Positions 15,640-16,407 of a DNA stretch of 41,071 bases are shown one piece after another. The notes below the pieces were generated by a model. It made no database searches and was not told where the DNA came from. It was given only the letters and a program-made list of their open reading frames with translations. This DNA comes from an uncultured virus (IMG/VR IMGVR_UViG_2522125174_000001) (Duplodnaviria > Heunggongvirae > Uroviricota > Caudoviricetes), in the IMG/VR virus record IMGVR_UViG_2522125174_000001. One strand, 5' to 3'. The position numbers and the translations under genes were made by a program. Each line of letters begins with the position of its first letter. Positions within the stretch are counted from its first letter, which is position 1.

Positions 15640-16407
15640 ATGAGTATTAATAAAATTTCAACCGAAATTCTTTTTAAAATTATTAGAAACGTTCCGATTG
15701 AAGAGCGTGATTCTATCGCATTGGTATCAAAAAAATTTAAAGCGATAGTCGATGATAATTCTCTTTGGAAAGATTTCATAAAACCGACCCATCTTCCTGC
15801 GGCAGAAAATCAGGGAAGAAAGGTCTTTATGAGTAATCTTTCCGCCAGAAAATTTGAATATATTCAGTCTGATGAGAAGGGGAGAATTTTATATAATAAA
15901 TTGTGTAAACTTTCTGCTGAGCAATTAAGAGACGAAGCTAAATCTGATAGAAAAGTAGCTGAATTTATATTAAGCAATAAATTCTTTTATGAAAAAATAA
16001 TAAAAAATGAATGCGGAAGCGACTACTTGGTTGATATTTTAATCTCCCAACCAAAAATAGCTTTTACTCTTCTACAAGAAAAAAGGCTCTACGAACATCT
16101 TTCGGTTACTTATCGTCATAAAAAACAAACTATATTAGGCTTAAAAGAAGTGGCGCTTGCTGATGAAGAAATAGCCAAAATCATTCTTAATAATGAAGAT
16201 TTATATAAAAAATTTCTAATTGATCGATACGCACGAAAACATTTAATAGACGTTATTCTAAAACATAATAAATTAATCGGAATTGTCACAAATAAAACTG
16301 AGTTATGTAAGGCTCTCGATATACCGAACGGAGCCAACGCAACACAGATCCTTGACTTGCGTAGAAAACGGCTCTTTTTATCAGAATTAGGAAGCTGCCC
16401 TTATTAA
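15640..16407 (+). CDS. F-box protein with helical repeats, putative host-directed effector (moron)
   Basis: INKISTEILFKIIRNVPIEERDSIALVSKKFKAIVDDNSLWK fits the F-box consensus; visibly AT-rich; inserted between terS and terL. Confidence 0.8.
   Translation: MSINKISTEILFKIIRNVPIEERDSIALVSKKFKAIVDDNSLWKDFIKPTHLPAAENQGRKVFMSNLSARKFEYIQSDEKGRILYNKLCKLSAEQLRDEAKSDRKVAEFILSNKFFYEKIIKNECGSDYLVDILISQPKIAFTLLQEKRLYEHLSVTYRHKKQTILGLKEVALADEEIAKIILNNEDLYKKFLIDRYARKHLIDVILKHNKLIGIVTNKTELCKALDIPNGANATQILDLRRKRLFLSELGSCPY

What the first reader, a model, noticed from the sequence alone, without database searches (positions are those of the whole stretch)
15640..16407. Phage-borne eukaryotic-type F-box protein with an unrecognised helical repeat
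Seen: AT-rich gene with a full F-box-like N-terminus, followed by four ~33-39 aa repeats (LRDEAKSDRKVAEFILSNKFFYEKI / LVDILISQPKIAFTLLQEKRLYEHL / LKEVALADEEIAKIILNNEDLYKKF / LIDVILKHNKLIGIVTNKTELCKAL) that do not look like ANK, LRR or WD40. Known: F-boxes act through eukaryotic SCF complexes. Inference: the phage carries a factor aimed at the eukaryotic host of its bacterial host, reminiscent of the phage WO eukaryotic association module.
Basis: partly seen in the sequence, partly recalled or inferred. Interest (0 to 1): 0.7.

Follow-up and report, generated by a model that had tools for sequence, protein, structure and literature searches.

The report
Symbiont F-box gene captured by prophage
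A dormant virus of a Mycoavidus-type bacterium (a group that lives inside soil fungi) carries, wedged between its two DNA-packaging genes, one copy of a bacterial gene family whose protein pairs a eukaryote-style F-box with a 34-residue repeat that matches no catalogued family and likely redirects the fungus's protein-disposal machinery.

Summary
Observation confirmed. ORF 15640-16407 (255 aa, GC 0.32) has a Pfam F-box at aa 6-44, above the curated cut-off. It is followed by a 34-aa helical repeat: three units score above shuffles and the fourth is degenerate. The repeat reaches no family cut-off; a weak AlphaFold model gives a three-helix, armadillo-like solenoid (inconclusive).

The gene is an insertion at the terS/terL overlap of a Mycoavidus-type prophage. 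All 9 distinct close sibling prophages lack it. A decayed duplicate of the terS 3' end follows it, and terL has lost its usual ATG.

It is not phage-specific. Twelve relatives (up to 17 repeats) sit at different non-prophage loci in 8 of 150 Burkholderiaceae genomes, all small, Mycoavidus or a second reduced clade. They are equally AT-rich. So this is a likely symbiont effector family with one copy captured as phage cargo, closer to Salmonella GogB than to a WO-type module.

The ORF is intact (dN/dS about 0.3, no rate acceleration) but lacks the F-box proline. Skp1 binding, secretion and expression are untested.

The parts
15640..16407 (+). F-box + 34-aa repeat gene (P0001, 255 aa); an alternative TTG start at 15628 would add 4 aa
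   Evidence: GC 0.316
15655..15771 (+). F-box domain, aa 6-44; Ile6-Ser7 in place of Leu-Pro, with Glu9, Val29-Ser30 and Trp43 kept
   Evidence: Pfam above cut-off; the family profile's best PDB matches are F-boxes of FBXO3, FBXW8, FBXL5, FBXO31 and Cdc4; alignment
15772..15924 (+). family-conserved linker, aa 45-95
   Evidence: lowest dN/dS of the protein, 0.22 against the nearest paralog
15925..16026 (+). repeat unit 1, aa 96-129
   Evidence: PSSM 29.8 against shuffle maximum 3.6; HMM 17 bits
16027..16140 (+). repeat unit 2, aa 130-167 (4-aa longer)
   Evidence: PSSM 5.7, just above the shuffle maximum; not found by the HMM
16141..16242 (+). repeat unit 3, aa 168-201
   Evidence: PSSM 32.9; HMM 19.6 bits
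16243..16344 (+). degenerate terminal unit 4, aa 202-235, probably a cap
   Evidence: in register, three helices in the model; PSSM -18.7, not above chance
15070..15540 (+). terminase small subunit, intact; left flank of the insertion
   Evidence: Pfam Sf6_terminase E 1e-45
15491..15613 (+). the ancestral terL start codon inside terS, now opening only a 40-codon frame that ends 26 nt before the F-box ATG
   Evidence: frame; the same ATG is present in all sibling junctions printed and is the annotated terL start of Burkholderia phage BgManors32, 50-nt overlap
16443..16519 (+). decayed duplicate of the terS 3' end; the terL ATG is lost (ACG at 16470) and an in-frame stop lies at 16491
   Evidence: 42 of 77 nt identical in register, maximum 33 at any other offset in the insert; frame
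16503..18005 (+). terminase large subunit, open from TTG 16503; codons 1-22 are only 58-72% identical to siblings against 86-90% for the rest
   Evidence: Pfam Terminase_6C
14135..14884 (-). second accessory gene (PIG-L deacetylase) just before terS; assorts independently of the F-box gene
   Evidence: absent from L002-L007, present at 74% in L083, which lacks the F-box gene
1650..36529 (.). prophage body from integrase to lysis genes; att sites not found
   Evidence: record classed as provirus, CheckV 100; att search gave nothing

Best explanation
This is one prophage-captured copy of an F-box + 34-residue-repeat gene family of Mycoavidus-type bacteria, and its protein likely acts in the fungal host as a mimic SCF adaptor that binds Skp1 through the F-box and would hold a fungal target on the predicted helical solenoid for ubiquitination. 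Shown: the F-box, the repeat, the family and its range, the insertion at the terS/terL overlap with a decayed duplicate, and an intact frame with dN/dS well below 1. Inferred: (1) the family evolved mainly as chromosomal effectors, with repeat number and surface residues changing to alter targets; (2) an ancestor of this phage took one copy into the terminase junction, duplicating about 77 bp so that terS and terL both stayed open, after which terL re-started at a TTG; (3) the cassette then moved into this sibling backbone by recombination, since its right flank and the first 22 terL codons are much more diverged than the rest; (4) it is kept because it adds one more effector to the lysogen (lysogenic conversion, as with GogB); (5) it reaches the fungal cytoplasm by the bacterium's own secretion system. 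The target, the route and Skp1/Cul1 binding are untested.
For: F-box above the Pfam cut-off. Of 32 PDB matches to the family profile, all listed are F-box proteins aligned over the F-box. An F-box works through Skp1, which is eukaryotic (established; PMC4209131 passages). The family has strong matches (E<1e-30) in 8 of 150 Burkholderiaceae genomes; 4 of these 8 supplied rows of the query alignment and match by construction, the other 4 (G027, G036, G075, G090) are independent. The 8 fall in two well-supported FtsH clades of 1.9-3.1 Mb genomes. None of the 12 members examined has head or tail genes of this phage within the 15-20 kb fetched. The window protein's nearest rows are P0002 and G052a (56% over aa 1-125); G052a lies beside glmM; the 6-row group holding them is starred 95/95. 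Empty site in 9 of 9 distinct siblings, 47 of 47 viral loci and 30 of 30 genome loci where both terminase genes were detected. dN/dS 0.31 overall and 0.25 in the F-box against G052a, with no rate excess on the phage copy with three outgroups, while the adjacent duplicate decayed to 55%. Type III and IV systems are reported in M. cysteinexigens (PMC5877345); FlhA/SctV-family genes are in 5 of 5 carrier genomes tested (flagellar and injectisome copies not separated). F-box-like candidate type III effectors are upregulated on fungal contact in Mycetohabitans (PMC7482071).
Against: No binding, secretion or expression data. The LP proline is replaced by Ser; one report ties this proline to Cul1 assembly, another found three proline-less F-box proteins on Cul1 (PMC3098594), and GogB LP-AA kept Skp1 binding at full length (PMC3386239). 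The F-box starts at residue 6, so there is no separate N-terminal secretion leader; the same is true of several non-phage members. dN/dS is averaged over both lineages with dS above 1, so it does not date the selection to the phage period. The F-box part of the model has pLDDT under 50. No promoter or terminator above chance was found for the cassette, unlike a classical moron. Four of the 12 other members adjoin mobile genes (two integrases; Toprim and TraF; a holin; a YhgA transposase), so mobile elements may spread the family more than 'chromosomal' suggests.
Confidence: 0.58

Rival explanations
1. The phage copy is a late-operon gene: it would be made only on induction and released into the fungal cytoplasm when the bacterium lyses, so it serves the phage or the surviving lysogens rather than being a secreted effector.
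For: It is co-directional inside the terS-terL operon with no + strand terminator between terS, the gene and terL. The old terL ATG now opens a short frame ending 26 nt before its start. It has no secretion leader. Holin, lysozyme and spanin-like genes are present. Delivery by lysis from a late operon is known for Shiga toxin phages (recalled, from no call).
Against: Nine of nine siblings do without it. Non-phage paralogs also lack a leader, so that absence is not phage-specific. No antiterminator was identified: the gene at 13272-13673 has no Pfam or PHROG match. A weak own promoter at 15537-15564 is possible, though at chance level.
Confidence: 0.14
2. The protein binds Skp1 but, lacking the F-box proline, does not build an active SCF; it would act as a Skp1 decoy or in a non-SCF complex.
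For: Ser7 replaces the proline held by 16 of 19 rows. A report links that proline to Cul1 association (cited in PMC3098594). GogB inhibits rather than completes an SCF (PMC3386239).
Against: The same paper found proline-less F-box proteins with Cul1. The repeat domain is still under purifying selection (dN/dS 0.34), which a pure decoy would not need. The non-phage member G052b also has Ser there.
Confidence: 0.13
3. It is a passenger: a recently idle copy that rides in the prophage with no present function.
For: Seen in one phage only; no second phage copy in viral contigs, the phage collection or metagenome contigs. Proline lost; repeats more degenerate than in the long members. One relative (P0005) has an eroded F-box with no Pfam match, so decay occurs in this family.
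Against: The frame is intact while the adjoining duplicate has decayed to 55% identity. End branch 0.33, with no relative-rate excess. It sits in an essential operon where it forced a new terL start.
Confidence: 0.11
4. It works inside the bacterium (phage exclusion, defence or a protein scaffold), with the F-box vestigial.
For: Accessory slots of sibling phages hold toxin-antitoxin-like genes (identity judged from the printed sequences, not scanned).
Against: The F-box is kept in 11 of 12 relatives scanned and is under purifying selection. The family was found only in small-genome lineages. No NCBIfam or PHROG match for P0001. PADLOC was not searched.
Confidence: 0.04

Closest known systems
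GogB of Salmonella prophage Gifsy-1 (PMC3386239, passages)
   Same: Prophage-encoded gene of an intracellular bacterium with an F-box-like motif plus a repeat domain, aimed at the eukaryotic SCF system.
   Different: GogB has N-terminal LRRs and a C-terminal F-box-like domain, is a proven type III substrate and binds Skp1. Here the F-box is N-terminal, the repeat is unassigned, the host is probably a fungus, and nothing is tested.
NEX1/NEX2 F-box families of Parachlamydiaceae (PMC4209131, passages)
   Same: Lineage-restricted family of N-terminal F-box + repeat proteins in endosymbionts, variable in copy and repeat number.
   Different: Those carry LRR or similar repeats, number over 100 per genome, and have a tested secretion signal. 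This family has 0-2 strong members per genome and a different 34-aa repeat.
Ralstonia GALA, Agrobacterium VirF, Legionella AnkB (PMC1781473 and PMC4209131 passages; AnkB F-box matched at E 0.013)
   Same: Bacterial F-box mimics that recruit host Skp1.
   Different: LRR, other or ankyrin substrate domains. P0001 ends Ser-Cys-Pro-Tyr, which is not a CaaX box like AnkB's (CaaX rule recalled).
Eukaryotic association module of phage WO (PMC5062602, passages)
   Same: Eukaryote-like, ubiquitin-related domain (PRANC is F-box-related) on a prophage of an intracellular bacterium.
   Different: The module is a multi-gene block enriched in the phage (17 versus 2) and shown in particles. This is a single insert inside the packaging operon, absent from siblings, from a mostly non-phage family.
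Mycetohabitans candidate F-box-like/LRR type III effectors (PMC7482071, passages)
   Same: F-box-like effectors predicted in a related endofungal bacterium.
   Different: Not this repeat family, as far as tested: no match to the repeat profile in G061 or G106, the two 3.3-3.6 Mb genomes with weak F-box-only hits (no positive control in 119, and their genus is not given).
Armadillo, HEAT and Pumilio alpha-solenoids
   Same: The model shows three short helices per unit; best structural neighbours are armadillo-type (Z 9.2, rmsd 4.7-5.6, about 149 aligned).
   Different: Z is below the ~13 that helical repeats reach by common arrangement; Foldseek best E 0.33; no sequence match.

Membership tests
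F-box proteins | ~45-aa F-box motif above the curated Pfam score | tested here: met
   30.1 bits against 20.5; 28.1 against 24.3
F-box proteins | Leu-Pro at the start of the motif | tested here: not met
   Ile6-Ser7; Pro in 16 of 19 family rows. The proline is not universal among F-box proteins found with Cul1 (PMC3098594)
F-box proteins | binds Skp1 and assembles with Cul1 | not tested
   no Skp1 sequence was in hand for a complex prediction; needs the bench
F-box proteins | C-terminal protein-interaction repeat domain | tested here: met
   34-aa repeat, 3 supported units here and up to 17 in G036a; that it binds a substrate is inferred
Secreted bacterial effectors (GogB, GALA, NEX type) | translocation signal and delivery into the host | tested here: inconclusive
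   no N-terminal leader; C-terminal 25 aa net +2, family mean +2.3 against +0.8 (sd 2.5) in 138 neighbours; secretion systems reported for the species
WO-type eukaryotic association module | multi-gene block that is a regular part of the phage genome | tested here: not met
   single gene, absent from 9 of 9 distinct siblings
WO-type eukaryotic association module | eukaryote-like domains enriched in prophage over chromosome | tested here: not met
   1 in a phage operon against 12 outside; 4 of the 12 adjoin mobile genes
WO-type eukaryotic association module | packaged in particles | not testable with these tools
   lies inside the terminase operon, so it would be packaged if the prophage is inducible; att sites not found
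Phage moron | extra gene between genes that are adjacent in relatives, with deviant GC | tested here: met
Phage moron | own promoter and terminator (definition recalled) | tested here: inconclusive
   6 promoter-like sites against 3.7 +/- 2.3 by chance; no + strand terminator after the gene
ANK, LRR, WD40, TPR, TAL repeats | match to the family's sequence profile | tested here: not met
   none for P0001 or in 12 relatives beyond chance-level rows; one regular array gave TPR_6 E 1.7e-5 in 1 of 10 members
LRV_2 (PF25591) | score above the curated cut-off of 27 bits | tested here: inconclusive
   5 of 10 repeat regions match weakly (best E 2.4e-6; 24.9 bits over model positions 15-36 of 61 for the first member); the window's region does not
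Armadillo / Pumilio solenoids | three-helix repeat superposing on solved members | tested here: inconclusive
   model pLDDT 64 from 3 sequences; best Z 9.2; Foldseek E 0.33

The most novel reading that the evidence does not exclude
An undescribed 34-residue repeat family serves fungus-dwelling Burkholderiaceae as a tunable substrate-recognition module for hijacking fungal SCF ligases, and this phage has wired one member into its late operon so that prophage induction and lysis, not a secretion system, deliver it into the fungal cytoplasm: a phage-to-fungus ubiquitin effector.
Probability: 0.13. Interest if true: 0.78.

Novelty: new variant of a known kind. Interest (0 to 1): 0.45.

Why it matters
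Effectors of Mycoavidus are almost uncharacterised, although the bacterium can be grown apart from its fungus (PMC5877345 calls it isolated; PMC12306442 passages describe few known effectors in endofungal bacteria). This gives a concrete, lineage-restricted candidate family with a testable partner (Skp1) and a repeat with no assigned family, in natural arrays of up to 17 units. It also shows a route by which such genes can move: capture in the terminase overlap of a prophage, with the overlap duplicated and terL re-started. The category itself (bacterial or phage-borne F-box mimic) is established, which limits the surprise.

Tried and rejected
Repeat assignment: Pfam, NCBIfam and PHROGs gave no family over a cut-off. 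PDB sequence searches matched only the F-box, plus chance-level coiled coils and SPAG6 at E 0.12. ESM Atlas best feature scores 0.76 and 0.77, best TM 0.49, all under the bar. Foldseek against PDB and viral models had no E<=0.001. None of this shows that the fold is new. A second model of a regular 8-unit array could not be obtained, so the fold rests on one weak model.

TAL-like DNA binding was considered because the period is 34 aa and Mycetohabitans uses TAL effectors (PMC10746252 passages): no Pfam or PDB match, three helices per unit in the model, and variation spread over many columns rather than two (seed chosen by a pattern, so biased). Rejected as unlikely.

CaaX prenylation: the Cys is third from the end and not conserved. 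Rejected. A basic patch at aa 240-243 could be a nuclear signal but is not conserved; lead only.

Wider range: profile searches of the 5.8-billion set scored only 8000 candidates and missed known members, so they bound nothing. The genome-contig scan with A1, viral scan with P0002 (91), plasmid search (89) and metagenome scans with P0001 and P0009 (93, 97) found nothing; the source of P0009-P0012 is still unknown. Eukaryotic genomes were not searched directly.

Expression: no RNA holder listed. Rfam: nothing at 14800-16700. att sites and tRNA: none found. No shared upstream motif was seen by eye in 14 leaders. SD pairing is weak for this gene and for core phage genes alike. In one search the leader-peptide line was read one base off; the frame quoted comes. 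No complex prediction was run.

Rows dropped: G075b (1078 aa, weak match, no 34-aa unit) was left out of the tree; G090a was cut to its F-box onward; P0013 (F-box only) was left out of A2; G123 was not scored.

Full report
1. Observation. Pfam finds an F-box at aa 6-44 above both curated cut-offs and nothing else. The four quoted segments begin at aa 96, 130, 168 and 202. Self-similarity peaks at offsets 72, 34 and 38; the top score was reached by 0 of 300 shuffles. A PSSM from 54 units of relatives, without this protein and its two closest kin, scores units 1-3 above the best of 1000 shuffles and unit 4 at chance level. The nearest paralog has one more 34-aa unit.

2. Setting. The window holds a prophage from integrase (1650-2723) through replication, terminase, head, tail and lysis genes (to 36529), flanked by WD40 genes. 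The record is classed as a provirus, CheckV 100. The closest named terminases are from Mycoavidus cysteinexigens MAGs at 93-94%, so the bacterial host is Mycoavidus-like; M. cysteinexigens is an endosymbiont of Mortierellomycotina fungi (PMC5877345 and PMC12306442, passages). The fungal host of this particular record is inferred.

3. The gene is an insertion. It lies between terS (15070-15540) and terL (16503-18005). In 9 of 9 distinct close sibling prophages (14 loci, TerL 93-96%) the two genes overlap with nothing between them. The same holds in 47 of 47 viral loci (of 80 fetched) and 30 of 30 genome loci (of 70) where both genes were detected; no locus had an F-box hit (some prophages appear in both sets). 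After the gene comes a decayed copy of the terS 3' end (16443-16519, 42 of 77 nt, against at most 33 elsewhere in the insert). In siblings and in the annotated phage BgManors32, terL starts at an ATG inside terS with a 50-nt overlap. In the window that ATG (15491) now opens only a 40-codon frame, the duplicate has ACG and a stop at those places, and terL is open from TTG 16503. Codons 1-22 of terL are 58-72% identical to siblings, the rest 86-90%, while siblings match each other at 82% or more there. I infer an old capture with duplication of the overlap, later moved into this backbone by recombination. Assembled contigs bridge both junctions, and a joint 15527 to 16570 shows the empty form in the same sample, probably from a sibling prophage (one sample, possibly the source).

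4. The family. Searches gave 3 proteins and 12 representatives. Those with names are from M. cysteinexigens and a Glomeribacter record; 11 of 12 relatives scanned have an F-box match. A profile found matches in 14 of 150 Burkholderiaceae genomes, all 3.6 Mb or smaller; 8 have strong matches, 4 of them by construction and 4 independently; 6 have weak ones, five over the F-box end and one (G014) over repeats only. None of 400 other genomes of the order matched the repeat profile. An FtsH tree places the 8 carriers in the Mycoavidus clade (G002, G027, G052) and in a second clade of 2.2-3.1 Mb genomes (100/100 each; their joint position is unresolved). Three of six genomes of the genus carry strong members (G069 and G098 were searched by F-box only unless among the unlisted rows). 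The 12 members examined lie at 12 different places, mostly among housekeeping genes (glmM, groEL, yceD, cydA, yaaA, dihydrofolate reductase, pdxH and others); none is near head or tail genes of this phage; four adjoin mobile genes. All are AT-rich (0.26-0.40). The repeat is 34 aa, with up to 17 regularly spaced units in G036a; conserved columns are Leu1, Ile4, Ala5, Ser7, His8, Ala11-12, Ile15, Phe/Leu21, Tyr22, Ile25 and Leu26. In a tree of the first 125 residues the window protein groups with P0002, G052a, G052b, P0004 and G059b (95/95). So the phage copy comes from within the bacterial family, not freshly from a eukaryote. The tree is midpoint-drawn, so direction of transfer rests on the empty sites and the 12:1 count, not on a root.

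5. Selection and the proline. Against G052a, dN/dS is 0.31 overall, 0.25 in the F-box, 0.22 in the linker and 0.34 in the repeats, with dS about 1.3. Relative-rate counts show no excess on the phage copy with three outgroups. The F-box has Ile-Ser where 16 of 19 rows have a proline. The literature is split on what that costs (PMC3098594 and PMC3386239, passages).

6. Structure. One AlphaFold2 model from 3 sequences: mean pLDDT 64, about 80 in the repeats, under 50 in the F-box; three short helices per unit. Best structural neighbours are armadillo-type solenoids at Z 9.2 or less, below what helical repeats reach by common arrangement; Foldseek finds nothing significant. The repeat is unassigned, not shown to be a new fold.

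7. Mechanism. Most likely (0.58) a mimic SCF adaptor delivered by the bacterium and kept on the phage as an extra effector. Rivals: late-operon expression with release by lysis (0.14), Skp1 decoy (0.13), idle passenger (0.11), bacterial-internal role (0.04). Every step beyond domain content, position and selection is inferred.

8. Comparison and novelty. Bacterial F-box mimics are well known (VirF, GALA, AnkB, chlamydial families; PMC1781473 and PMC4209131, passages), including a prophage-borne one (GogB) and an F-box-related PRANC domain in phage WO. It fails two defining features of the WO module. Full-text searches for 'Mycoavidus' with 'F-box' and 'Glomeribacter' with 'F-box' returned 0 papers; 'endofungal', 'F-box', 'bacteria', 'symbiont' returned 4, of which I read passages of two, both about Mycetohabitans candidates; the other two I saw only as listings. 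Searches gave listings with no description of this family or of this insertion site. The main Mycoavidus genome papers cited as refs 35 and 94 in PMC12306442 were not read, and no supplements were opened; effector tables there may already list these genes, and NCBI labels P0014 and P0003 simply as F-box proteins. Verdict: a real, new variant of a known kind; interest 0.45.

Noticed in passing
window 14076-14098 and 14135-14884 (-): A second accessory gene (PIG-L deacetylase) sits just before terS and is also bordered by a duplicate: a ~23-nt remnant of the terS 5' end precedes it. Same capture style as the F-box cassette; present in L083 without the F-box gene.
   Followed up: partly
window 3-1052 (-): The gene left of the integrase begins with an LP-containing, F-box-like stretch near residue 27, then pentapeptide and WD40 repeats. 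Pfam lists no F-box among the 25 of 27 families shown, and the own-record F-box search found only P0001.
   Followed up: partly
window 36610-40476 (-) and G000 record: The 84.7-kb record repeats the pattern tail-lysis genes followed by large WD40/NLR-like genes three times. If these lie inside the att sites they, not the F-box gene, are the better candidate for a WO-like module; att sites were not found.
   Followed up: partly
window 3301-4635 (-): A 2-hydroxycarboxylate transporter gene lies in the prophage's left arm.
   Followed up: no
L002 6510-6911, L006 2080-2481, L007 6529-6930; L004 3975-4274, L007 3904-4212: Sibling prophages carry toxin-antitoxin-like genes between terL and portal and before terS (PIN and RelE/HigB likeness judged by eye). 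The terminase region is a hotspot for accessory genes.
   Followed up: no
L175 5139-7013 (-): An AT-rich gene with a ShET2 enterotoxin N-terminal domain is divergently paired with the closest non-phage paralog.
   Followed up: no
L145 12343-14136 (-): An F-box + LRR gene lies 1.4 kb from the G002 family member, so Mycoavidus also has conventional F-box-LRR genes.
   Followed up: no
L180 6780-8501, L187 7010-10243, L186 2820-4162: Variant architectures: G090a has two repeat units before its F-box; G075b (1078 aa) ends in shorter ~29-aa related units; G014 has two repeat-like ORFs with no F-box match.
   Followed up: no
window 13272-13673 (+): A conserved 133-aa gene after rusA, in the place of a late-gene antiterminator, has no Pfam or PHROG match.
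   Followed up: no
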